23,637 nt of DNA from UHGV virus genome UHGV-1381150; one strand, 5' to 3'. This stretch comes from a virus. The notes under the pieces were generated by a model. That model did not search any database. It had not been told where the DNA came from and was given only the letters and a program-made list of their open reading frames with translations. Position 1 is the first letter of the stretch, and every line of letters starts with the position of its first letter. Shown piece after piece: positions 711-18,920 of this stretch. A program made the translations under genes and the position numbers.

Positions 711-1137
711 ACCGGACTCCTCCTGCGATCCCTTCTGATACTGTCATCAGCATTACGTCATCCTCCGTCATGTCCGCCACATCCGGGGAAGTAGGGATAA
801 CTTCATTCCCGTCCGGGCCAAAGCGGACACCTCCGGCAAGCCCTGCCGCTTTCTGCATCAGCACATCATCTTCAGGCTCTTCGTCAGCCTCGCGCCGGTT
901 CAGCAGACTGAAATCCAGCGGATGCATATCCGGATCGCTGAAAAACAGGCTGAGCACGGTGTACGTCAGCCCGGAAAAGTGCATATCCAGCAGAACATCA
1001 TGAAAATAATGGGTACTGTAAAAGCGGTGCCAGTCGGCATACTCCGTGGATGACATCCCGGCAAGCATGGCGCGCCAGTCAGGTCGCCCCATCTCACGCG
1101 CCAGTTTCAGGGCAAAACTCAGCTCACCGTCGAACAC
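703..1137 (-). CDS. T: gpT reading frame, expressed as a G-T fusion by -1 programmed frameshift (tail assembly chaperone)
   Basis: 144-aa ORF matches lambda gpT as recalled; overlaps the 3' end of G in the -1 frame; slippery heptamer at the junction. Confidence 0.85.
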   Translation of the reverse strand: MFDGELSFALKLAREMGRPDWRAMLAGMSSTEYADWHRFYSTHYFHDVLLDMHFSGLTYTVLSLFFSDPDMHPLDFSLLNRREADEEPEDDVLMQKAAGLAGGVRFGPDGNEVIPTSPDVADMTEDDVMLMTVSEGIAGGVRYG

Positions 1138-1541
1138 TTTCCCGCAGAAACAGGCTCTGCAGGCCCGGCGTCCTCTGCCTGTTCAGGGGCATCATTCACA
1201 ACAAACTCAGACATACCGGACAGACGCATTACCACATTTTCAGCCTGAGCAATTGCCTCTGTGGGCCAGGTGGTAAGCACTTCCTGCTCAATTTGTTTAA
1301 CGGCTTCATTCATGGACGGCATCTTTGTCTTCTGCGGATGGTTATGCCACAGGGACATCGCCACCAGAAAAGCACCGGTTCTGACGAGATCTTCCACGCT
1401 CACCTGTCGATTGAGACTGGATCCCGCCTGTTCTGCCTGTCGTTTCAGCAGGGCGAGATGCTCAATTCGCTGCAGGGCTGACAGTTCAGAAAGCGTGACG
1501 CTCATACCGTTATATTCAAATGATTCGGTTTTCAGGAACAT
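1119..1541 (-). CDS. G: Tail assembly chaperone gpG
   Basis: 140-aa ORF MFLKTESFEYNG...AGKCSTVS matches lambda gpG as recalled; synteny V-G-T-H. Confidence 0.9.
   Translation of the reverse strand: MFLKTESFEYNGMSVTLSELSALQRIEHLALLKRQAEQAGSSLNRQVSVEDLVRTGAFLVAMSLWHNHPQKTKMPSMNEAVKQIEQEVLTTWPTEAIAQAENVVMRLSGMSEFVVNDAPEQAEDAGPAEPVSAGKCSTVS
1137..1143 (-). other. Slippery heptamer GGGAAAG (plus strand CTTTCCC) for the G-T -1 frameshift
   Basis: Heptamer read directly in the G/T overlap, just upstream of the G stop (1119-1121). Confidence 0.7.
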
Positions 1542-1556
1542 CGCTGACTCTCCGGA

Positions 1557-2297
1557 TTAACTGTCGGTGACGGTGATTCCTGCAACCACAGCAAGTTCAC
1601 CATTACCGGATACAACCGGAATGTTGACCTTGCCTGCAGCAACACCTTTCACGGTGATGGTCATACCACTGACCGACACGGTGGCTTTTGTTTTATCCGC
1701 AGACACCGCACGGAAGCTCTTGTCGGTTGCGCCTTCCGGCTGGAATGCCACGGTCAGCGTGATGCTCCGCCCTTTCACCACCGAAGTGCTGGCAGGCGTC
1801 ACGGTCATGCCGGTTGCCGCTGTTACCGTGCTGCGATCTTCTGCCATCGACGGACGTCCCACGTTGGTGACTTTCACCGTGCGGGTGATCACTTCCTTCG
1901 CCGTCACCGCCTTACCGATACTGCTGACCCAGCCGCGGAACACATCGACCGTGCCGTTCGGGAAGCGGATTTTATAGGCACGGGTATCCCCTTTATTAAA
2001 CCACGCCAGCAGCGCCTGCTGCCCCTGCTCTCCGGGCATCCACGCCAGCGTGAAGCTGGTATCTCCGGCAGATTTCTGCCCCTGCCCGGTCGCAGTCCAG
2101 TCCGCATTTTCATCATCGAGATAGCTGTCGTCATAGGACTCAGCGGTCAGTTCGCCGGGCGTCAGGTCTTTAACTTTTGCCAGACGCGACCAGTCAACGT
2201 CTGAAAGCGGATTCGCATAAGGGTCACCGCTCCCGTTATAAACCCACAGGGTGGTCCCGGCCCCTTTCACCGGTGCCAGAGGATTTGGTGTTGGCAT
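1557..2297 (-). CDS. V: Major tail tube protein gpV (start at internal Met, [18 protein letters not shown]...)
   Basis: Matches lambda gpV as recalled; the ORF-track N-terminal extension is not used in lambda. Confidence 0.9.
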
Positions 2298-2304
2298 ATC
2301 GTCC

Positions 2305-2700
2305 TCACATTTCATAGGTAATGACATAAGTCAGATCGGCTGAACTCCACAGGCCCGCATCATCGTCGCGCCGATAGTCATAGCCACTGGCCACCATACT
2401 GGTGATCAAATCTGACAGCGCCGGGATATCGCTCATCACCGGATAAATCCGGGACTCCATCCACGAATCCAGCTCTGAATCCGGCACCTGAGCAGGCAGG
2501 AAAACTTCAATATGCAGCTCCGCCTGCCAGGTATCGCTGTCCAGCTCTTCGCCCGTGTATTCAGCGCCGGTGAGATAAACGGCAATTGCCGGAAAATCTT
2601 CCTCATCAAAAACAGCGGGGCGACCATCAAAAAGCGTCGCCCCGGTGTCATGCTTCTCCAGTGCATCCAGTACGGCTGCACGGAGTTCAGTATGTTTCAT
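2305..2700 (-). CDS. U: Tail terminator protein gpU
   Basis: 131-aa [23 protein letters not shown]... matches lambda gpU as recalled; stop of Z overlaps its start. Confidence 0.92.
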
Positions 2701-3275
2701 CGCTTTATTACCATCCTCAGTTGATGCTGCAGCGCATAGCCCAGCTCTTTCGGAAGACGTTCACGCCGTATCCGCTCAATATTTTGTTTAAACGCCGTGG
2801 TCAGCGGCACCGCCATCGGGATTTTCACCACATCAATGGGGTAACGGTTTTTCCCGGCCACACGCTGCATGACATGCCACCGGCCATTTTTCAGTTGCTG
2901 AATAAACGCGCCGGGAATACGACGGTTACCCACCACAAGCACGCTGCCGCCACCTTTCAGGGATGAACGCTGCCCCTTTTTACGACGCCTGCGGCGCGAA
3001 AGGACAACCCGCGCATTACCCAGCCTGATTACGGGCAAATCCCCCCGGTTAACTTTGATTCTGGCCTGCGGATTTTTGACCGTGGCCCTTTTCAGCCTGG
3101 CCCTTTCCTTTACCAGTTTCCGGCGTACCTTTGTCTCACGGGCAACCTGTGACGCCGACTGCGATATCGCGGATGACGCAACGCGGTTAATGGCCATTGC
3201 GGCGGCACCGGGCACCGCCGTTCTGCTGATACGGCTGAGGTTTTCAACGGCCTGCTCAAGACCTTTTATGGCCAT
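2697..3275 (-). CDS. Z: Tail completion protein gpZ
   Basis: 192-aa ORF MAIKGLEQAVENLSRIS... matches lambda gpZ as recalled. Confidence 0.92.
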   Translation of the reverse strand: MAIKGLEQAVENLSRISRTAVPGAAAMAINRVASSAISQSASQVARETKVRRKLVKERARLKRATVKNPQARIKVNRGDLPVIRLGNARVVLSRRRRRKKGQRSSLKGGGSVLVVGNRRIPGAFIQQLKNGRWHVMQRVAGKNRYPIDVVKIPMAVPLTTAFKQNIERIRRERLPKELGYALQHQLRMVIKR

Positions 3276-3286
3276 TCATCCCCCTT

Positions 3287-3640
3287 TCAGCGGCGACGGT
3301 TAACGGCAGGCGGTACGCCCCGCCCAAGCCAGAGATGACAGCTTCCGCCATCATCCGGCGAAATCCGGTCTATCCAGAAGTTTTCCTCACCGATGGTCAG
3401 CGTGTCGCCGCGCCGCAGCTGCCGCACATCATCAGTCCGGACAAACAGGGACGGGCTGGAGCCTTCAACGCGCACGCCCTGTCCGGCATAGCTGATATTT
3501 TCAGGGTCATCAAAAACACCACGTATCACAGCACCGGACTGCTCACCGGATGTCATGGTGGCTGACGTTCCCATGTACCCGCGTATCGTTTCATCGGCGC
3601 AGGCAATGGCAGCATCGAACAGGTTATCGAAATCAGCCAC
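3287..3640 (-). CDS. FII: Head-tail joining protein gpFII
   Basis: 117-aa ORF MADFDNLFDAAIA... matches lambda gpFII as recalled. Confidence 0.92.
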   Translation of the reverse strand: MADFDNLFDAAIACADETIRGYMGTSATMTSGEQSGAVIRGVFDDPENISYAGQGVRVEGSSPSLFVRTDDVRQLRRGDTLTIGEENFWIDRISPDDGGSCHLWLGRGVPPAVNRRR

Positions 3641-6831: not shown

Positions 6832-10512
<3,681 letters not shown>

Positions 10513-10538
<26 letters not shown>

Positions 10539-11058
10539 TCAGCAACCCCGGTATCAGTTCATCCAGCGCGGCTGCTTTGTTCATGGCTTTGATGATATCC
10601 CGTTTCAGGAAATCAACATGTCGGTTTTCCAGTTCCGGAAAACGCCGCTGCACCGACAGGGGGATCCCGTCGAGAATACTGGCAATTTCACCTGCGATCC
10701 GCGACAGCACGAAAGTACAGAATGCGGTTTCCACCACTTCAGCGGAGTCTCTGGCATTCTTCAGTTCCTGTGCGTCGGCCTGCGCACGCGTAAGTCGATG
10801 GCGTTCGTACTCAATAGTCCCTGGCTGGAGATCTGCCTCGCTGGACTGCCGCAGTTCTTCAACCTCCCGGCGCAGCTTTTCGTTCTCAATTTCAGCATCC
10901 CTTTCGGCATACCATTTTATAACGGCGGCAGAGTCATAAAGCACCTCATTACCCTTGCCACCGCCTCGCAGAACGGGCATTCCCTGTTCCTGCCAGTTCT
11001 GAATGGTACGGATACTCGCACCGAAAATGTCAGCCAGCTGCTTTTTGTTGACTTCCAT
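10513..11058 (-). CDS. Nu1: Terminase small subunit Nu1
   Basis: 181-aa ORF MEVNKKQLADIFGASIRTIQNWQEQGMPVLRGGGKGNEV... matches lambda Nu1 as recalled. Confidence 0.95.
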
Positions 11059-11260
11059 TGTTCATTCCACGGCCAAAAACAGAGAAAGGAAACGACAAAG
11101 GCCCAAAAGTTCGTTTTCAGCACCTGTCGTTTCCTTTCTTTTCAGGGGGTATTTTAAATAAAAACATTAAGTTACGACGAAGAAGAACGGAAACGCCTTA
11201 AACCGGAAAATTTTCATAAATAGCGAAAACCCGCGAGGTCGCCGCCCCGTAACCTGTCGG
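11059..11260 (-). other. cos site: cosB between Nu1 and cosN; cosN 12-nt cohesive-end sequence GGGCGGCGACCT on the minus strand at 11236-11247
   Basis: Reverse complement of 11141-11247 reads GGGGCGGCGACCTCGCGGGTTTTCGCTATTTATGAAAATTTTCCGGTTTAAGGCG..., matching the lambda left end as recalled; sequence is continuous across cosN. Confidence 0.85.
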
Positions 11261-11282
11261 ATCGCCGGAAAGGACCCGCAAA

Positions 11283-11299
11283 ATGATAATAATTATCAT
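11283..11299. promoter_or_regulatory. Perfect 17-bp palindrome ATGATAATAATTATCAT containing the 7-1-7 Fur-box consensus TGATAAT-n-ATTATCA
   Basis: Read directly from the sequence; 15/15 match to the idealised Fur box; lies about 150 bp upstream of the plus-strand ORF at 11447. Confidence 0.5.
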
Positions 11300-11446
11300 C
11301 TGCATGTCACAACGTGCATCTACGCCATCAAACCACGTCAAATAATCAATTATGACGCAGGTATCATATTAATTGATCTGCATCAACTTAACGTAAAAAC
11401 AACTTCAGACAATACAAATCAGCGACACTGAATACGGGACAACCTC

Positions 11447-11680
11447 ATGTCAACGAAGAACAGAACCCGCAGAACAACAACCCGCAACATCCGCTTTCCT
11501 AACCAAATGATTGAACAAATTAACATCGCTCTTGATCAAAAAGGGTCCGGGAATTTCTCAGCCTGGGTCATTGAAGCCTGCCGCCGGAGACTGTGCTCAG
11601 AAAAAAGAGTTTCTCCTGAAGCAAACAAAGAAAAGAGTGACATTACTGAATTGCTCAGAAAACAGATCAGACCAGATTGA
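11447..11680 (+). CDS. Small basic protein (77 aa), possible ribbon-helix-helix DNA-binding fold
   Basis: ORF on the strand opposite to the late genes next to cos (the bor position in lambda); RNIRFPNQMIEQINIAL...FSAWVIEACRRRL resembles a strand-helix-helix pattern; family assignment uncertain. Confidence 0.45.
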   Translation: MSTKNRTRRTTTRNIRFPNQMIEQINIALDQKGSGNFSAWVIEACRRRLCSEKRVSPEANKEKSDITELLRKQIRPD

Positions 11681-11736
11681 AGCAATTTAGATAATCGTGC
11701 AGACTACGCCCCTCATATCACATGGAAGGTACTACA

Positions 11737-12147
11737 ATGGCTCAGGTTGCCATTTTTAAACAAATATTCGATAAAGTGCGAAATAATTTAAACTATCACT
11801 GGTTTTATTCTGAACTAAAACGTCACAATGTCTCACATTACATTTACTATTTAGCCACAGAGAATATTCATCTTGTTCTTGAAAACGATAATACGGTTTT
11901 AATAAAAGGACAGGGTAAGGTTGTAAATGTAAGATTTTCAAAAAATAAATGCCTTATAGAAGCCACATTAAAAGGATTCAAATCAGGAGAGTTATCATTT
12001 TACGAATACAGGAAAAATCTTGCTACAGCAGGGGTTTTCAGATGGATTACAAATATCCACGAAAACAAAAGGTATTACTATACCTTTGATAATTCATTAC
12101 TCTTTACTGAGAACATTCAGAACACTACACAAATATTTCCGCACTAA
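11737..12147 (+). CDS. Hypothetical moron protein (136 aa from [11 protein letters not shown]), possibly DUF1398/YbcV-like
   Basis: GGAAGG Shine-Dalgarno 8 nt upstream of the ATG at 11737; AT-rich codon usage; family call is from memory only. Confidence 0.55.
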
Positions 12148-12637
12148 ATCATAACGTCCGGTTTCTTCCGCGCCAGAACCGGACTCGCTGGCATGATGAA
12201 ATATGTGTACCCGGTAACCCCGGTGTGCATCGTTTTTGATTATTCCCGCACACTCGCGCAGAAGGAGTTCCCCGTCGGGCTGCGGTCTCTGTTAATACGG
12301 GAATACGGCGACGATACAGCGCATGATGTGTCAGGCTTGAATACCTTTATCCTTTAAAAGGGATATCAGTTAAGTTATCCCGTGTAGGGTATAAGCCATT
12401 ATCAAAGCCACTCTGTAGGAAGTGCTTTTGTAATGGCAATAAAAAGCCCCGCGAATGCGAGGCTAAATCCTGGTATTTGTAATGACTGGCTCTTATCTCA
12501 ACGCAGCCCCTTACCGCGCGCAAAATGCTCAATATCAAGCATCAGCAATGAGATGTTTAATCTGGATTCACTCCAGAAGTGAGCACCACCCTGTCTACAG
12601 AGCCAGATGTGAAGGATGATGAGTAAAATTATCGCTA

Positions 12638-13963: not shown

Positions 13964-15016
13964 TTATTTCCCCACCAGTTCACTTACCTCTTTCACCGTC
14001 TGATTAAATCGCTCTGACTCAAGTTCAACACCTAACGCCCGACGCCCCAGCGCCATTGCCGCTTTTATTGTGGAACCGGATCCCATAAAGAAATCAGCAA
14101 CCAGATCGCCTTGTCGACTACTGGCACTGATTATTTGCCGGAGCATATCCGCAGGCTTCTCACACGGATGTTTACCCGGGTAGAACTGAACGGGTTTATG
14201 CGTCCAGACGTCGGTATAAGGCACGGAAACTGATACGGAGAAATAGCGCCGGAGAGTTTTAAACTCATCCAGCAATTCAGAATATTTGCGATTCAGTGAA
14301 TCATAAGATGCCACCAGCTGGTGGTGTGGTTGTTCCAGTTGTTGTTCCTGAAATTTCTCTGCCGCTATACGGGAAAACAGTGCCTGCAACTTCCGGTAGT
14401 CAGCCTCATTCGGCAACTGCCACTGACTGGCACCAAACCAGTGGGAAACCATATTTTTCTTACCTGTGGCTTCGGCAATTTGTTTTGCCGTTATACCCAG
14501 TTCGGCACGAGCATCCCTGAAATACGATATCAGCGGTGCCATTATGTGCTGTTTGAGTTCCCTTTCTTTTGCCGCATAGCCGTCACTTTTGCCGCGATAT
14601 GGCCCCTGGTAATGTTCAGCAAACAGAACGCGCTCTGTGGCAGGAAAATATGCGCGCAGACTTTCTTTATTACACCCATTCCAACGTCCGGACGGCTTCG
14701 CCCAGATGATATGGTTAAGCACGTTGAAACGTTCACGCATCATGATCTCAATATCAGATGCCAGGCGATGCCCACAGAACAGGTAAAGGCTTCCGGCAGG
14801 TTTCAACACCCGCCAGAACTGGGCCAGACAGTGGTCCAGCCACTTAAGGTAATCTTCGTCCCCTTTCCACTGATTGTCCCAACCGTTGGGTTTCACCTTG
14901 AAGTAAGGCGGATCGGTAACAATCAGGTCAATGGAATCATCAGGCAGGGACTGAATAAAATGCAGGCAATCAGCGTTGATTAAATCAACACTGTTTATTT
15001 TTACAGTATTTTTCAT
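13964..15016 (-). CDS. DNA methyltransferase, beta-class amino-MTase (N6-adenine or N4-cytosine)
   Basis: 350-aa ORF with catalytic motif IV DPPY (IVTDPPYF) near the N-terminus and an AdoMet-binding FxGxG-like motif (DFFMGSGST) near the C-terminus, i.e. the IV-before-I order of beta-class enzymes. Confidence 0.85.
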   Translation of the reverse strand: MKNTVKINSVDLINADCLHFIQSLPDDSIDLIVTDPPYFKVKPNGWDNQWKGDEDYLKWLDHCLAQFWRVLKPAGSLYLFCGHRLASDIEIMMRERFNVLNHIIWAKPSGRWNGCNKESLRAYFPATERVLFAEHYQGPYRGKSDGYAAKERELKQHIMAPLISYFRDARAELGITAKQIAEATGKKNMVSHWFGASQWQLPNEADYRKLQALFSRIAAEKFQEQQLEQPHHQLVASYDSLNRKYSELLDEFKTLRRYFSVSVSVPYTDVWTHKPVQFYPGKHPCEKPADMLRQIISASSRQGDLVADFFMGSGSTIKAAMALGRRALGVELESERFNQTVKEVSELVGK

Positions 15017-15165: not shown

Positions 15166-15360
15166 TCATTGCTGAAGGCGTCTGTAACAGCCGAACTGGT
15201 AATCTGCCAGCCCCGCCATAACCAACTGGGTCAGTATTAACTGACAGCGTTCGCGTGAAAGATATGTGTTTTGTGCAATCTCCCCGACTGTTGCCGGTTC
15301 GATGCTTAATTCATTAAAAACAACTTTCGCCGTTTCTGTCATATCTTGCTGTTTTAGCAT
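15166..15360 (-). CDS. Small winged-helix-like protein (64 aa from MLKQQDMTETAKV...)
   Basis: AGGA Shine-Dalgarno upstream of the ATG at 15360; VGEIAQNTYLSRERCQLILTQLVMAGLA resembles a wHTH recognition region; weak support. Confidence 0.4.
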   Translation of the reverse strand: MLKQQDMTETAKVVFNELSIEPATVGEIAQNTYLSRERCQLILTQLVMAGLADYQFGCYRRLQQ

Positions 15361-15482
15361 GTCTTTTTTCCTTCTGGTTAACATGACATACCAATAACTC
15401 TTGTCTAAAAAGCCAGCAAGATAAAAAGTCAGTATTCACGACCACCAGCGTGTTTACCGTACTGCACCAGGTTTACAGGTAC

Positions 15483-15506
15483 AAAAAAACCCGCTCGACG
15501 GCGGGT
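15483..15506 (-). terminator. Rho-independent terminator for the minus strand (hairpin CCCGCT-CGAC-GGCGGG followed by a 7-T run on the minus strand)
   Basis: Plus strand reads AAAAAAACCCGCTCGACGGCGGGT; GC-rich 5-6 bp stem with a U-tract on the minus-strand side; only TTT on the plus-strand side. Confidence 0.55.
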
Positions 15507-15553
15507 TTAAGTTGTGTGGCGAAGTAACCACTCTTAACACAATACAATACTTT

Positions 15554-15582
15554 TTGCGTACGCGTTATAGTTTTCTTACAAT
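15554..15582 (+). promoter_or_regulatory. Candidate sigma70 promoter of the DUF262/HEPN operon (-35 TTGCGT, 17-bp spacer, -10 TACAAT)
   Basis: Hexamers read directly; followed by AAAGGA RBS (15595-15600) and ATG at 15609; prediction only. Confidence 0.4.
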
Positions 15583-15608
15583 CAACTTTCAATTAAAGGA
15601 ACGAAAAC

Positions 15609-16769
15609 ATGACTACACTCAAAGAACTCAAAGAAGAGCTTGCTCAGATACAAGATGAACACGCTAAGAACAGAAAAAAGGCTGAAATTGCAGCTTTAAC
15701 CGCTTCCGCTGACAATGAAATCAGACTCGCTCAGAGAAACATTGGATACAATGTACGTGAGTGGACCGTTGAAGTCATTATTCAAAAGTATGGTGATAAT
15801 ATTGAAAATGACAAAAACGAGCTTTTTATTCCAGATTATCAACGTGATTACAAGTGGGATACAAAAACAGCCTCTCGCTTTATAGAAAGTATTCTATTAG
15901 ACTTTCCAATACCTTACCTTTACATTGCTGATGTATTTAATGAAGACCCTGAATTAGATGGTAGGGTAGAAATCATTGATGGTTCACAACGGATACGCTC
16001 TATTTATTATTTTTGGAACGATCAATTTGAGTTAAAGGATTTGAAAGAGCTTAAAAGTTTAGAAGGTTTCAAATTTTCAGATCTTTTAGCTAGCCGCCAA
16101 AGAAGATTTTTAAGAGCTTCACTAAGATTTATTGAGTTGAAAGGTGATGTTGAGGAACAACATAGAAGAGATTTATTTGAAAGGATCAACTCAGGTGTTA
16201 AAAGATTAGAAGCGATGGAAGTGAGGCATGGCTCAGATGCTGCTACCTCAATGTTCTATAAAGATGTTGTGACCCCATGCTCAACAAACTCACTTTTTTC
16301 CCAACTAGCTCCATTATCAGACCGGAAACGGTCGAATGGCGATCATCGTGAGTTAGTTTTGAGATTTTTTGCATATTTAAATGATTTAGAAAACTATAAG
16401 GGATTTGTCCGTCCCTTTATTGATAATTATTTAAATGAACAAGCAGCAGCTGTGACTACTCAACAAGATGTTGATAATTTTAAACATGATTTTGAAATGA
16501 TGCTTGCTTTTGTTGCTACCCATTTCCCTATTGGCTTTAAAAAGACCGCAACAAGTAAAACCACCCCACGAGCCAGATACGAAGCCATTGCCGTGGGAAC
16601 TGCACTTGCATTAAAAACTAACCCACAACTCCAGAGTCCAGCCGTACCTGTAGGTGAATGGCTATTTGAAGAGGAATTTGAAACACTTGTTACTGCTGAT
16701 AGTGCAAACAATACCAGCCAGCTAAAAAACAGAATCTTTTACGTTAAAAATAAGTTGTTAGGGATTTAA
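15609..16769 (+). CDS. DUF262/ParB-like (GmrS-type) NTPase-domain protein with an uncharacterised C-terminal half
   Basis: 386 aa; motifs IPDYQRDYKW (aa 74-83) and IIDGSQR (aa 122-128) match the hallmark motifs of DUF262 domains; N-terminal coiled-coil-like segment; AT-rich gene. Confidence 0.8.
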   Translation: MTTLKELKEELAQIQDEHAKNRKKAEIAALTASADNEIRLAQRNIGYNVREWTVEVIIQKYGDNIENDKNELFIPDYQRDYKWDTKTASRFIESILLDFPIPYLYIADVFNEDPELDGRVEIIDGSQRIRSIYYFWNDQFELKDLKELKSLEGFKFSDLLASRQRRFLRASLRFIELKGDVEEQHRRDLFERINSGVKRLEAMEVRHGSDAATSMFYKDVVTPCSTNSLFSQLAPLSDRKRSNGDHRELVLRFFAYLNDLENYKGFVRPFIDNYLNEQAAAVTTQQDVDNFKHDFEMMLAFVATHFPIGFKKTATSKTTPRARYEAIAVGTALALKTNPQLQSPAVPVGEWLFEEEFETLVTADSANNTSQLKNRIFYVKNKLLGI

Positions 16770-16771
16770 AA

Positions 16772-17461
16772 ATGAGTCTAATTGATTTACGAGATGAATA
16801 TGAAGAAAGAGCAAGAGACATTATGGAACTGCTTTCTCTTGCATCATCTATAGAGATTCATACTCAGCAGTTAGATCCGCAAGCGCATCAAGATGAAATA
16901 GAATCTAATATCCTAAGGGTAAATATTTTAAAATCATCCGTTCATATGATGCTATATAATCAAGTTGAAAATACTGCCAGAGGTTGCATCGAGTCAATTT
17001 ATGATCATTTACAAGATAATGAGGTGAATTACGCATCACTCAGGGAGAAGCTTCAAGTAAATATATTACATAGAATTGTTTCAGATAATGAAACAGGGCA
17101 ATCCCTTTATAAAAAGATAGGCACTGACATTTCCAAAAGAATAATTTCAGCCTCATTGAATATTCGTAAAGAATTCAATGGTAATGTTTGCAAGCCTGTA
17201 TTACACAAAATAACGCAGGCTTACGGAATAACTATCGCAAACTCACCTGAATGTAGAAATGGTATTGACTTAGACTTGCTTAAGGATATCAGAAACGAAC
17301 TCGCGCATGGAAGTACTAGCTTCTCTAAAAAGGGGCAAATTGACCCCTTAGAAGAAGTTAAGTCTAGAGCAGAGAGAGTTGATCTATATCTTCGTTTATT
17401 AATAAACTCAACTGAAGATTATATTATCTCTAACGGATATTTATCCCCTCAACATGCCTAA
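16772..17461 (+). CDS. HEPN-like protein (Rx4H motif RNELAH), putative effector partner of the DUF262 protein
   Basis: 229 aa; starts 2 nt after the stop of the upstream gene; predicted all-helical; conserved-looking R-x4-H motif at aa 174-179 (nt 17291-17308). Confidence 0.6.
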   Translation: MSLIDLRDEYEERARDIMELLSLASSIEIHTQQLDPQAHQDEIESNILRVNILKSSVHMMLYNQVENTARGCIESIYDHLQDNEVNYASLREKLQVNILHRIVSDNETGQSLYKKIGTDISKRIISASLNIRKEFNGNVCKPVLHKITQAYGITIANSPECRNGIDLDLLKDIRNELAHGSTSFSKKGQIDPLEEVKSRAERVDLYLRLLINSTEDYIISNGYLSPQHA

Positions 17462-18470
17462 CAAACGTTCTCCCTATTACTTGGCCAATTATAGGGGGAA
17501 CAGCATTACCAATCATCGTTCCTAACTTTTGGAATGAAAAAGGCGTATTTTTTCCAATAAATTTATAATCCATAGGAAAAGATTGTAAAATAGCAGCTTC
17601 ACGCAAAGTTATTGCTCTATTTTGCTCAGGATGTCCGAATCGCCCATTACCATATCCATAACATTGGGTAGTTATTGTAGGACTAGTATCGTCCCAAACC
17701 ATCCGTCCATAAACACTTTTATAGGTAGCACCTGAATGCTTTTTATGGCAATCCGCTCTAATTTCTTCAGGCCAATCATCCCACGTACCACCTGGTAAAG
17801 AGTGCAAGATTCGTTTAAGGTTAATATCCCTTAATTTAGGCGAACGATGCAATGGATCACTTTCGAGTTTCTCCCCTGCACCTATTTTTGGCAACTGACC
17901 AATAGCATCCTTTACTGTAACTTTACGGCTTACTTTTTTTTGATCAAGGCTGATTGGCCCCAATATGGACCCAATTAGAATTAATCTACGTCTATTTTGA
18001 GGCAAGCCATACTCGGAACATTTTACAACGTCGTACCACAGATGATACCCAAGAGTCTTTAATACACTAACAAACTCTTCAAAAACCTTATGATTTCTAA
18101 GTTGAGGAACATTTTCCATAGTCACAAGCTCTGGCATGACATCACTTACAATCCTCTGAAACTCAGATAAAAGACGCCACTTTGTATCATCTTTTCTGCT
18201 ATTTGGATTACGATACTTGGAAAACGGTTGGCAAGGGGCACAGCCTGCAAGTAATCTAATATTTCCTTCCTTGAACATAGCAGACACATCGCTGGATTGC
18301 AGTTCAGTAACTGACTGGTTAATGAACTTCGTTAAGGGATTATTGCTCTCAATAGCGAAACGGCAGGACTCATCAATATCAATGCCATGAGAAACTTCAA
18401 TCCCGGCTTTTTTTAGCCCAAAAGTTAAGCCCCCTGCGCCACAAAAAATGTCTACTGCTTGAATGTTCAC
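17430..18470 (-). CDS. DNA (cytosine-5)-methyltransferase, Dcm-like (GTG start with GGAG Shine-Dalgarno)
   Basis: 346 aa with canonical m5C-MTase motifs in order: I FCGAGG, IV GCAPCQPFS, VI ENV, VIII QNRRR, a variable target-recognition region, and C-terminal GNAV. Confidence 0.9.
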   Translation of the reverse strand: MNIQAVDIFCGAGGLTFGLKKAGIEVSHGIDIDESCRFAIESNNPLTKFINQSVTELQSSDVSAMFKEGNIRLLAGCAPCQPFSKYRNPNSRKDDTKWRLLSEFQRIVSDVMPELVTMENVPQLRNHKVFEEFVSVLKTLGYHLWYDVVKCSEYGLPQNRRRLILIGSILGPISLDQKKVSRKVTVKDAIGQLPKIGAGEKLESDPLHRSPKLRDINLKRILHSLPGGTWDDWPEEIRADCHKKHSGATYKSVYGRMVWDDTSPTITTQCYGYGNGRFGHPEQNRAITLREAAILQSFPMDYKFIGKNTPFSFQKLGTMIGNAVPPIIGQVIGRTFVRHVEGINIR

Positions 18471-18489
18471 AAGATTCTCCGTTACTTTA

Positions 18490-18535
18490 CCCTGGTATTA
18501 TATACACATAAAAGTTGGGAAAGTAGAATGATTTT
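18490..18535 (-). promoter_or_regulatory. Candidate late promoter pR' with presumed Q-utilisation site (-10 TATAAT at 18502..18497 on the minus strand)
   Basis: The 79-bp Q-to-MTase intergenic region contains a perfect TATAAT on the minus strand about 30 nt upstream of the MTase start; the -35 is weak (TACTTT), as is common for activator-dependent promoters. Confidence 0.35.
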
Positions 18536-18549
18536 ACATAGCACTTAAC

Positions 18550-18903
18550 TCATTGTATTAAATAAAAAAATGACAAGCATCCATCAATAAACCCCATAGC
18601 TGTTTGCATATCTTTTCGAACTGTTCCGTCTGAACATTTCCGCTTCTTTGCAATTGTACGGAGCGAAATGCCAACAACAAAGTGAGCAATTATCAGCTCA
18701 TACTCTGCCGGCTTGTATTTACGCAACCTAGCGACACAACCGTCTATTATGATGCCCTCATCATCATCGCACTGAATCCGGGACTTTCTGCCATGAGGTA
18801 AAAGCCGCTTGAAGCCAGCAGCTACCGGTTGCCAGTCCACACCACTGTTTTCTGCAGCAGCCCATGCCCCCCAGCGGTCCAAAACTTCATACATATCACG
18901 CAT
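18550..18903 (-). CDS. Q: Late-gene antiterminator Q (QuuD/Q21-like family)
   Basis: MRDMYEVLDRWGAWAAAENSG...QCDDDEGIIIDGCVARL resembles E. coli DLP12 QuuD as recalled; located directly upstream of the late operon. Confidence 0.8.
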   Translation of the reverse strand: MRDMYEVLDRWGAWAAAENSGVDWQPVAAGFKRLLPHGRKSRIQCDDDEGIIIDGCVARLRKYKPAEYELIIAHFVVGISLRTIAKKRKCSDGTVRKDMQTAMGFIDGCLSFFYLIQ

Positions 18904-18920
18904 CAACTTTCTCCACAAAA

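What the first reader, a model, noticed from the sequence alone, without database searches (positions are those of the whole stretch)
17430..18470. Dcm-like C5-methyltransferase convergent with, and overlapping by 32 bp, the 3' end of the HEPN-like gene
Seen: a minus-strand m5C-MTase (motifs FCGAGG, PCQ, ENV, QNRRR, GNAV) is the first gene after the Q gene and candidate late promoter; its last 32 nt (17430-17461) overlap the end of the plus-strand HEPN-like gene. It appears to share the AT-rich composition of the DUF262/HEPN genes (by eye), suggesting the three genes arrived together. Inference, three alternatives: (a) modification partner of an RM-like system whose restriction arm is DUF262+HEPN; (b) a phage anti-restriction MTase expressed first in the late transcript; (c) convergent overlap gives antisense interference, so late transcription silences the defence operon during lytic growth.
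Basis: partly seen in the sequence, partly recalled or inferred. Interest (0 to 1): 0.7.

Follow-up and report, generated by a model that had tools for sequence, protein, structure and literature searches.

The report
Methylase partner of a DUF262–HEPN defence cassette
The cytosine methylase is real and is the conserved third gene of a mobile three-gene, restriction-modification-like defence cassette (methylase + DUF262 + HEPN) sitting between the phage's Q gene and its true late promoter, so it most likely marks "self" DNA and is not a late phage gene.

Summary
The sequence facts hold. A 346-aa C5-cytosine methyltransferase lies at 17430-18470 (-), with all catalytic motifs. It converges on a HEPN gene with a 32-bp overlap, inside a ~3-kb AT-rich island that also carries a DUF262 gene.

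Comparative evidence supports reading (a). The methylase travels with DUF262 + HEPN_MAE_28990 in 14 of 15 lineages examined. These include non-phage settings (Tn7-like cargo, Vibrio chromosome, a McrBC island) and three gene orders. In 5,426 complete E. coli genomes both halves occur in 107 genomes, at 108 places each; a whole-cassette query gives the same 107.

Readings (b) and (c) lose their premise. The block matching phage 933W's annotated pR'-qut-tR' lies at 15568->15483, beyond the cassette, and fires away from it. The methylase instead has its own conserved TATAAT, GGAG and GTG start.

The association was noted in one table line in 2013. A methylase-less DUF262+HEPN pair (PD-T4-2) is a validated defence system. 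I found no experimental study of the three-gene form. Verdict: a new member of a known but uncharacterised kind, of moderate interest. The methylation motif and the HEPN target (RNA or DNA) remain unknown.

The parts
17430..18470 (-). C5-cytosine DNA methyltransferase, 346 aa, GTG start. Proposed modification (self-marking) component.
   Evidence: ORF. PF00145 E=2.7e-54. PADLOC MTase_II 1.2e-88 and DrmMII 7.7e-85. All motifs present, and the region between motifs VIII and IX is conserved across lineages.
18468..18506 (-). The methylase's own expression signals: conserved TGTATATAATAC (-10 TATAAT at 18502->18497), GGAG at 18480->18477, GTG at 18470->18468.
   Evidence: Conserved in the window, E. 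coli E19, Yersinia mollaretii and S. bongori while the flanking sequence diverges. Actinobacillus also has a TATAAT upstream. Promoter activity is inferred, not shown.
17430..17461 (.). 32-bp tail-to-tail overlap of the methylase and HEPN coding regions, with no intergenic terminator.
   Evidence: Comparable overlaps of 4-65 bp occur in 8 other convergent loci.
16772..17461 (+). HEPN_MAE_28990 protein, 229 aa, with an invariant RNELAH (Rx4H) motif at residues 174-179. Proposed effector nuclease.
   Evidence: PF18737 E=2.9e-17 and PF18735 E=1.4e-7. Motif invariant in alignments. AF2 model is all-helical, pLDDT 83. The family has 1947 50%-identity representatives.
15609..16769 (+). DUF262/GmrSD_N (ParB-like NTPase) protein, 386 aa, with YQR and DGSQR motifs. 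Proposed DNA or modification sensor. Its stop lies 2 nt before the HEPN ATG, so the two form an operon.
15554..15582 (+). Candidate sigma-70 promoter of the DUF262-HEPN operon: TTGCGT, 17 nt, TACAAT. It overlaps pR' back to back.
   Evidence: Read from the sequence. Not listed by the consensus scan. Inference only.
15483..15568 (-). The phage's late control region, homologous to 933W pR'-qut-tR': -35-like ATAACG 15568->15563, -10 TATTGT 15544->15539, core GTTAAGAGTGGTTAC 15538->15524, qut-equivalent 15525->15518, terminator 15508->15483.
   Evidence: Aligns with the pR', qut and terminator features annotated in NC_000924. Conserved in all Q21/933W-family phages examined whatever cassette they carry, and absent upstream of the terminator in SfV, which has a different Q. 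Terminator found by the scan.
18550..18918 (-). Antiterminator Q (Q21/933W family). Its last ~7-10 codons belong to the inserted cassette.
   Evidence: PF06530 E=5.4e-46. Homology to related Q genes stops at window ~18571-18581. The C-terminal tails differ between cassettes.
15576..18575 (.). Approximate extent of the ~3.0-kb AT-rich three-gene cassette, inserted between the Q 3' end and pR'.
   Evidence: Homology breakpoints and the GC profile.

Best explanation
The methylase is the modification component of a self-contained, horizontally mobile, three-gene restriction-modification-like defence module.

Proposed mechanism:
- From its own promoter it methylates cytosine C5 at a still unknown short motif in the host and prophage DNA.
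- The DUF262 protein is a ParB-fold NTPase of the kind that reads DNA modification in BrxU, SspE and DndI. It reads that mark.
- When it meets DNA lacking the mark (an incoming phage or plasmid), it activates, or acts together with, the HEPN nuclease. HEPN then cuts nucleic acid, most likely RNA, which would give an abortive or translation-arrest outcome.

Context in this prophage:
- The cassette is cargo inserted in a hotspot between the 3' end of Q and the late promoter pR'.
- The convergent, overlapping layout is inherited from the module's gammaproteobacterial lineage. It is not an adaptation to late phage transcription.

Shown: gene identities, motifs, boundaries, linkage, and the position of the pR' homologue.
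For: 1. Identity of the parts.

2. Linkage across lineages. PF00145 + GmrSD_N + HEPN_MAE_28990 lie side by side in E. coli (two alleles), S. bongori, Y. mollaretii, Pseudoalteromonas (next to TnsC/D/E), Actinobacillus, V. cholerae (between housekeeping genes), Pseudomonas M47T1 (next to McrBC), Enhygromyxa, and five metagenomic lineages. Only the most distant lineage (L019, 21% identity) lacks the methylase. That makes 14 of 15.

3. Three gene orders occur: convergent, M>DUF262>HEPN, and DUF262>HEPN>M. Linkage therefore survives rearrangement.

4. Identities fall together across lineages: DUF262 100/90/80/71/58/50/36, HEPN 100/91/69/57/42/33/27, methylase 100/94/78/66/53/53/23.

5. Within E. 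coli, the methylase alone and DUF262+HEPN alone are each found, full length, in 107 of 5,426 genomes at 108 places. The whole-cassette query covers at least 80% in the same number of genomes.

6. A Vsr mismatch-repair gene, the usual companion of active m5C methylases, is adjacent in L015 and L016.

7. In the one genome seen with a frameshifted methylase (strain 639), the only change in 1,853 nt of DUF262+HEPN is D245N, at an invariant DUF262 position. Restriction-arm decay also occurs: HEPN frameshift variants of 192 aa exist.

8. The DUF262 model resembles BrxU, SspE and DndI. The HEPN Rx4H motif is invariant.

9. The methylase has its own conserved -10, SD and GTG.

10. Literature: Anantharaman et al. 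[quoted passage not shown]
Against: - No biochemical or genetic test exists for this trio in the searched literature.
- The related two-gene PD-T4-2 (DUF262+HEPN) protects E. coli K-12 when cloned without any methylase (PMC9519451, Table S2). DUF262+HEPN pairs are therefore not inherently dependent on a methylase. L019 also lacks one.
- Neither DUF262 nor HEPN is a proven DNase here, and the HEPN fold search gave only unspecific helical hits.
- The methylation motif is unknown.
- The strain 639 case is n=1. The frameshift is in an A8 run and could be a sequencing error. About a quarter of DUF262 positions are invariant in alignment A7, so a chance hit is plausible.
Confidence: 0.62

Rival explanations
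1. The methylase and DUF262/HEPN are functionally linked, but with licensing logic as in SspABCD-SspE. DUF262 senses the m5C mark on the host's own DNA, and this activates or positions the system against invaders. Methylation is then required for defence rather than for self-protection, and losing the methylase would inactivate the system rather than kill the cell.
For: - DUF262 of SspE is reported to sense phosphorothioate modification and trigger NTPase and nicking (reviewed in PMC10952713).
- PD-T4-2 relatives are not toxic without a methylase.
- The strict co-occurrence fits this reading as well as the best explanation.
Against: - The strain 639 pattern, a frameshifted methylase with a substitution at an invariant DUF262 residue, is what a toxic restriction arm predicts, although weakly.
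- Nothing in the sequence separates the two logics.
Confidence: 0.15
2. PrrC-like two-layer system, as proposed by Anantharaman et al. 2013. The ParB/DUF262 protein is itself the restriction DNase paired with the methylase. HEPN is a latent RNase, held inactive by the RM proteins and released as a suicide back-up when the RM layer is neutralised. This is a sub-variant of the best explanation with different roles for the two proteins.
For: - PMC3710099 section 10 argues this for RM-linked HEPN families and calls the partner a 'ParB nuclease'.
Against: - In characterised DUF262 proteins (GmrSD, BrxU, SspE) the nuclease activity is assigned to DUF1524, not DUF262 (PMC10952713).
- This 386-aa protein has no recognisable nuclease domain beyond the ParB fold.
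Confidence: 0.12
3. Reader's (b). An orphan phage anti-restriction methylase that protects phage DNA from host restriction enzymes. It is expressed first in the late transcript and only happens to lie next to DUF262/HEPN.
For: - Lambdoid phages commonly carry orphan methylases.
- This window has one, the N6 methylase at 13964-15016, which is conserved in SfV, cdtI, phiP27 and the Stx phages just downstream of tR'.
Against: - The Dcm-like gene is never found without DUF262/HEPN in 5,426 E. coli genomes.
- It accompanies them in non-phage contexts.
- It lies upstream of, not within, the pR' transcription unit.
- Related phages with the same Q type lack it and carry other cassettes at the same site.
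Confidence: 0.04
4. Reader's (c), modified. Convergent transcription through the overlap silences DUF262/HEPN during lytic growth. The source would not be pR'. It would be early pR-derived transcripts that read through Q and the methylase. The same layout could also set the methylase-to-restriction ratio when the cassette enters a new host.
For: - No terminator-like site is predicted between Q and the methylase, or between the two convergent genes.
- The overlap leaves no room for one.
- The convergent overlapping layout recurs in 9 lineages.
Against: - Five lineages have co-directional operons, so convergence is not needed for function.
- Overlap length and sequence are not conserved.
- The late promoter points away from the cassette.
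- No expression data are available.
Confidence: 0.07

Closest known systems
MAE_28990 HEPN / ParB (DUF262) / DNA methylase operons (Anantharaman et al. 2013, Biol Direct 8:15, Table 1)
   Same: The same three components are present. The HEPN protein matches PF18737 above the gathering score and has an intact Rx4H motif. It is in an operon with a DUF262/ParB gene, next to a DNA methylase.
   Different: That description is one line of comparative genomics, with no mechanism or experiment. Added here: the prophage Q|pR' hotspot context, the convergent overlapping layout, the methylase's own promoter, the linkage statistics, and a conserved methylase target-recognition region.
PD-T4-2 (Vassallo et al. 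2022; DUF262 + HEPN, E. coli ECOR65)
   Same: A DUF262 protein followed by a small HEPN protein, carried in E. coli accessory DNA. It is experimentally protective against T4. The window's DUF262 protein matches the PD-T4-2_A model at E=4.6e-27.
   Different: - PD-T4-2 is a two-gene, ~1.5-kb system that works in K-12 without a methylase.
- The window's HEPN does not match any PD-T4-2_B model, even at E<=10.
- The DUF262 protein matches NsnA better than PD-T4-2_A.
- The trio here always brings an m5C methylase.
SspABCD-SspE and DndBCDE-DndI (modification-sensing DUF262 proteins)
   Different: The modification here is C5-methylcytosine, not phosphorothioate. The nuclease module is a separate HEPN protein instead of a fused DUF1524 HNH-type domain.
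GmrSD / BrxU type IV restriction enzymes
   Different: The C-terminal DUF1524 nuclease is absent. Type IV enzymes attack modified DNA and have no cognate methylase, whereas this protein is strictly linked to one.
Menshen (NsnABC)
   Same: The DUF262 protein is NsnA-like (PADLOC NsnA E=5.9e-45). The Menshen survey also notes methylases next to some Menshen loci and asks whether ParB-DUF262 targets unmodified DNA (PMC12065111).
   Different: No NsnB ATPase or NsnC effector gene is present. HEPN takes their place.
Classical type II restriction-modification with convergent genes
   Same: A stand-alone m5C methylase is paired tail-to-tail with the presumed restriction genes. The pair is mobile, AT-rich, and strictly co-inherited.
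   Different: No recognisable restriction-endonuclease fold. The restriction arm is a ParB-like NTPase plus a HEPN (typically RNase) protein.

Membership tests
C5-cytosine DNA methyltransferases (PF00145 / TIGR00675) | Profile match above the curated cut-off | tested here: met
   PF00145 scores 185.2 bits against 22, covering 4-335 of 346 aa. TIGR00675 scores 119.9 against 100.65.
C5-cytosine DNA methyltransferases (PF00145 / TIGR00675) | Catalytic motifs: I (FxGxG), IV (PCQ with the catalytic Cys), VI (ENV), VIII (QxRxR), X (GNAV) | tested here: met
   DIFCGAGG, GCAPCQPFS, TMENVP, LPQNRRR and IGNAVPP are all present and conserved in 9 homologues.
C5-cytosine DNA methyltransferases (PF00145 / TIGR00675) | Methyl transfer to C5 of cytosine at a defined motif | not testable with these tools
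   Needs methylome sequencing. The ST131 methylome paper gave no information on this gene.
E. coli Dcm (CCWGG) orthologue | Match to the Dcm subfamily model NF007772 | tested here: not met
   17.7 bits against a cut-off of 710. 'Dcm-like' applies only at the superfamily level.
MAE_28990 HEPN-ParB-methylase operon (Anantharaman 2013) | HEPN protein of the MAE_28990 family with the Rx4-6H motif | tested here: met
   PF18737 scores 64 bits against 26.8. RNELAH is invariant in 22 sequences.
MAE_28990 HEPN-ParB-methylase operon (Anantharaman 2013) | Adjacent ParB/DUF262 gene and adjacent DNA methylase gene | tested here: met
   DUF262 lies 2 nt upstream of HEPN, and the methylase overlaps the HEPN 3' end. 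The same trio is found in 14 of 15 lineages.
PD-T4-2 (PADLOC definition) | PD-T4-2_A (DUF262) model match | tested here: met
   E=4.6e-27, although NsnA scores higher at 5.9e-45.
PD-T4-2 (PADLOC definition) | PD-T4-2_B (HEPN) model match | tested here: not met
   No PADLOC hit at E<=0.01. At E<=10 the only hit is RTasHEPN at 0.019.
Menshen (NsnABC) | NsnA followed by the NsnB ATPase and the NsnC effector | tested here: not met
   Only the NsnA-like protein is present. The next gene is HEPN, and there is no ATPase gene in the cassette.
GmrSD/BrxU/SspE-type enzymes | DUF262 N-terminal NTPase domain | tested here: met
GmrSD/BrxU/SspE-type enzymes | Fused C-terminal DUF1524 (HNH-type) nuclease | tested here: not met
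   No DUF1524 hit. The protein is 386 aa with a helical C-terminal half.
Restriction-modification system (functional sense) | Methylation by the cognate methylase protects DNA from the linked nuclease arm | not testable with these tools
   The only evidence is indirect: strict linkage and the strain 639 frameshift with D245N.
Q-dependent late transcription unit of the prophage | The gene lies downstream of pR'/qut and its terminator tR' | tested here: not met
   The homologue of 933W's annotated pR'-qut-tR' is at 15568->15483 (-), downstream of the cassette and transcribing away from it. Promoter activity itself was not measured.

The most novel reading that the evidence does not exclude
The trio is a distinct class of restriction-modification system with no restriction-endonuclease fold. 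A ParB-like NTPase reads the m5C status of a fixed motif; the methylase target-recognition region is conserved from E. coli to Vibrio, Pseudomonas and metagenomic lineages. On meeting unmarked DNA, it unleashes a HEPN RNase. A DNA-methylation self/non-self check would then be coupled to an RNA-level, abortive-type effector.
Probability: 0.3. Interest if true: 0.7.

Novelty: new member of a known kind. Interest (0 to 1): 0.45.

Why it matters
- If methylation really gates a DUF262-HEPN arm, this would be a simple three-gene model for how ParB-fold DUF262 sensors read DNA modification. That question is open for PD-T4-2, Menshen and Dazbog. It would also show how an RM-type self/non-self check can be wired to a HEPN nuclease.
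- The cassette is in about 2% of complete E. coli genomes, including ST131 strains, and in Klebsiella, Enterobacter, Salmonella bongori, Yersinia and Vibrio. It could therefore affect phage therapy host range and plasmid uptake.
- The analysis also defines a cargo hotspot between Q and pR' in Q21/933W-family lambdoid phages, including Stx phages. That site holds several uncharacterised two-gene cassettes.

Tried and rejected
- The genome-contig scan with the HEPN alignment returned only 2 loci, so it gave no census. I sampled contexts one by one with the look-up of encoding contigs (all 12 look-ups used).
- I tested whether the two-gene cassettes at the same site in phages 569R4 and Stx2a_WGPS2 are PD-T4-2. 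They have no Pfam or PADLOC hits.
- PDB hits for the methylase (Dnmt1, 3G7U, HaeIII, HhaI) do not reveal its target motif. Counts of common m5C motifs in the cassette were uninformative.
- The ST131 methylome paper does not cover this gene.
- My first guess for pR' (TTGAAA, 17 nt, TATAAC at 15592->15564) was dropped. Its -35 is not conserved among related phages, and the 933W alignment places the -10 at TATTGT 15544->15539.
- The consensus promoter scan found no more sites than in shuffled sequence (13 against 11.0 +/- 3.7) and listed neither promoter discussed here.
- The A8 run in the methylase as a conserved phase-variation tract: it is present only in the two E. coli alleles.
- The Q21 paper gave the family assignment (PF06530) but not the binding-site sequence, because figures are not held.
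Full report
**Where the window comes from.** It is an E. coli lambdoid prophage; for example, it is 100% identical over the cassette to strain AR437. Phage rightward and late transcription runs on the minus strand. The order on that strand is:
- RusA, a KilA-N protein, DUF968/YdfU, and Q (18550-18918, PF06530, the Q21/933W family);
- the C5 methylase (17430-18470);
- on the opposite strand, DUF262 (15609-16769) and HEPN (16772-17461);
- an intrinsic terminator (15508->15483), a small wHTH ORF, an N6 methylase (13964-15016), and the lysis genes.

**Checking the observation.**
- The ORF, its GTG start and its five named motifs are present.
- It scores far above the curated cut-offs for PF00145 and TIGR00675. 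It is not an orthologue of E. coli Dcm: NF007772 gives 17.7 bits against 710.
- The HEPN stop codon lies 32 nt inside the methylase ORF.
- GC is 0.40, 0.35 and 0.37 for the three genes, against 0.46-0.56 for Q and DUF968. GC3 is 0.27-0.31 against 0.43-0.57. The "by eye" composition claim is therefore correct.
- Homology to related phages stops at about 15575 on the left and at 18571-18581 on the right, inside the last codons of Q. This defines a ~3.0-kb insert.

**Is the methylase part of the DUF262/HEPN unit?** I took HEPN homologues from 90% down to about 21% identity, and DUF262 homologues, and read their neighbourhoods.
- PF00145 + GmrSD_N + HEPN_MAE_28990 are adjacent in 14 of 15 lineages.
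- Prophage settings: E. coli (two alleles), S. bongori, and Y. mollaretii, the last again between a PF06530 Q and the holin.
- Non-phage settings: Pseudoalteromonas inside a Tn7-like element, V. cholerae between housekeeping genes, and Pseudomonas M47T1 beside McrBC.
- Others: an Actinobacillus MAG, Enhygromyxa, and five metagenomic contigs.
- Only the most distant pair (L019) lacks a methylase within 5 kb.
- Three gene orders occur, so the association survives rearrangement.
- The three proteins diverge in parallel.
- Vsr, the repair partner of active m5C methylases, is adjacent in two loci.
- In 5,426 complete E. coli genomes, the methylase alone and DUF262+HEPN alone each hit 107 genomes at 108 places, all full length. 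A whole-cassette query gives the same 107 genomes. There are two alleles, one of them in ST131 strains.
Reading (a) is supported.

**A small natural experiment.** In strain 639 the methylase is annotated as frameshifted (A8 to A7). The only difference in 1,853 nt of DUF262+HEPN is D245N, at a position invariant in 17 homologues. This is what a toxic restriction arm predicts. However, it is a single case, the frameshift lies in a homopolymer, and roughly a quarter of positions are invariant in that alignment. Independent HEPN frameshift alleles of 192 aa also exist, so the restriction arm can decay.

**Where is the late promoter?** Readings (b) and (c) need it between Q and the methylase. The evidence points elsewhere.
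- In phages with the same Q family but other cargo (569R4, Stx2a_WGPS2, cdtI), Q's stop is 12-23 nt from a convergent foreign gene. A ~90-nt block directly upstream of the terminator is conserved whatever cassette is present. SfV, with an unrelated Q, shares only the terminator.
- That block aligns with the pR' (-35 TTTACG, -10 TATCAT), qut and terminator features annotated (as putative) in phage 933W, where pR' overlaps the Q 3' end.
- In the window the equivalents are -10 TATTGT at 15544->15539, the core GTTAAGAGTGGTTAC at 15538->15524, and tR' at 15508->15483. The -10 keeps the pattern TAxxxT in all eight phages.
- The cassette was therefore inserted between Q and pR', and late transcription starts beyond it and runs away from it.
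- The methylase has its own signals: TGTATATAATAC, GGAG and GTG. These are conserved in four enterobacterial lineages while the flanks diverge.
- These are sequence inferences. No transcript data were available.

**How it probably works.**
- The DUF262 protein has the YQR and DGSQR motifs. An AF2 model (pLDDT 83) is closest to BrxU, PadC, SspE, KorB/ParB and the DndI-system protein. In BrxU and SspE, DUF262 is described as an NTPase that responds to DNA modification and controls a fused DUF1524 nuclease (PMC10952713).
- Here DUF1524 is absent. A separate HEPN protein with an invariant Rx4H motif follows in the same operon.
- The most economical model: the methylase marks self DNA, DUF262 reads the mark, and HEPN is the effector.
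- Anantharaman et al. proposed a variant in which the ParB protein is the DNase and HEPN a PrrC-like back-up RNase. An SspE-like licensing logic is also possible. These are listed as rivals.
- The methylase region between motifs VIII and IX is unusually conserved across all lineages. This suggests one fixed target motif for the whole family (inference).

**Comparison with known systems.**
[quoted passage not shown] It is the only paper in the library that names this HEPN family.
- PD-T4-2 is a validated DUF262+HEPN pair that works without a methylase. The window's HEPN does not match its model, so this locus is a relative, not a member.
- It is not Menshen (no NsnB or NsnC) and not a GmrSD-type enzyme (no DUF1524).
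- PADLOC v2 has no model for this HEPN.
- I therefore class the locus as a new member of a known but experimentally uncharacterised kind.

**Limits.**
- The 15 lineages are a sample, not a census.
- Promoters and the direction of the methylation logic are inferred.
- The methylation motif and the HEPN substrate are unknown.

Noticed in passing
window ~15576-18575; L003 2084-3479; L005 1897-3460; L013 3050-4438; L014 2980-4209: The site between the Q 3' end and pR' is a cargo hotspot in Q21/933W-family lambdoid phages. 569R4 (286+182 aa), Stx2a_WGPS2 (343+179 aa) and cdtI (313+147 aa) each carry a different two-gene cassette there, opposite to the phage's late-gene direction. phiP27 carries a 409-aa GIY-YIG nuclease gene. 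The 569R4 and WGPS2 proteins have no Pfam or PADLOC hits, which makes them candidate unknown defence systems.
   Followed up: partly
window 13964-15016 (-): An N6/N4 DNA methylase (PF01555, PADLOC MTase_II 3e-152) is conserved in SfV, cdtI, phiP27, 569R4 and Stx phages, just downstream of tR'. This gene, not the Dcm-like one, is the backbone orphan methylase placed early in the late transcript.
   Followed up: partly
window 15539-15582: The candidate promoter of the DUF262-HEPN operon (TTGCGT 15554-15559, TACAAT 15577-15582, + strand) overlaps the pR' homologue back to back. Its -35 lies in the conserved phage block. Occupancy of pR' could therefore influence expression of the defence operon. 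This is pure inference.
   Followed up: no
L025 (E. coli strain 639, NZ_CP187284.1) 748-3608; window 17934-17941 and 16341: The methylase is frameshifted in an A8 run, and there is a single G>A change giving D245N at an invariant DUF262 residue. This may be compensatory inactivation, or the frameshift may be a homopolymer sequencing error.
   Followed up: partly
window 17320-17335 (HEPN codons ~184-190); P0011, P0012, P0016: Several E. coli sequences carry a HEPN allele truncated to 192 aa by a 1-nt slip in the AAAAAGGGG run (...SFSKRGKLTP*). The last helix is lost.
   Followed up: partly
L015 9676-10086; L016 5730-6137: Vsr (very-short-patch repair endonuclease) genes lie next to the trio in two distant metagenomic lineages. 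This fits an active m5C methylase.
   Followed up: no
L008/L009 8607-9334; L018 3016-3587: A HigB-toxin/HTH_3 antitoxin pair lies beside the trio in S. bongori prophages and in an unrelated metagenomic contig.
   Followed up: no
window ~11000-12500: A second AT-rich island (GC 0.35-0.43) lies downstream of the Rz gene. It carries a + strand DUF1398 gene (11722-12147, PF07166 E=3e-43) and is probably another moron locus.
   Followed up: no
L008-L010 ~7792-8129: In S. bongori the Q gene next to the methylase is degraded into three frame-shifted fragments, while the trio is intact. The cassette outlives the phage's late regulator.
   Followed up: no
window 15166-15384 (-): A small 72-aa ORF with weak wHTH similarity (DprA_WH/TrmB, below cut-off) is the first ORF after tR'. 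It is conserved in SfV (orf47), phiP27 (L23) and Stx phages. Its function is unknown.
   Followed up: no
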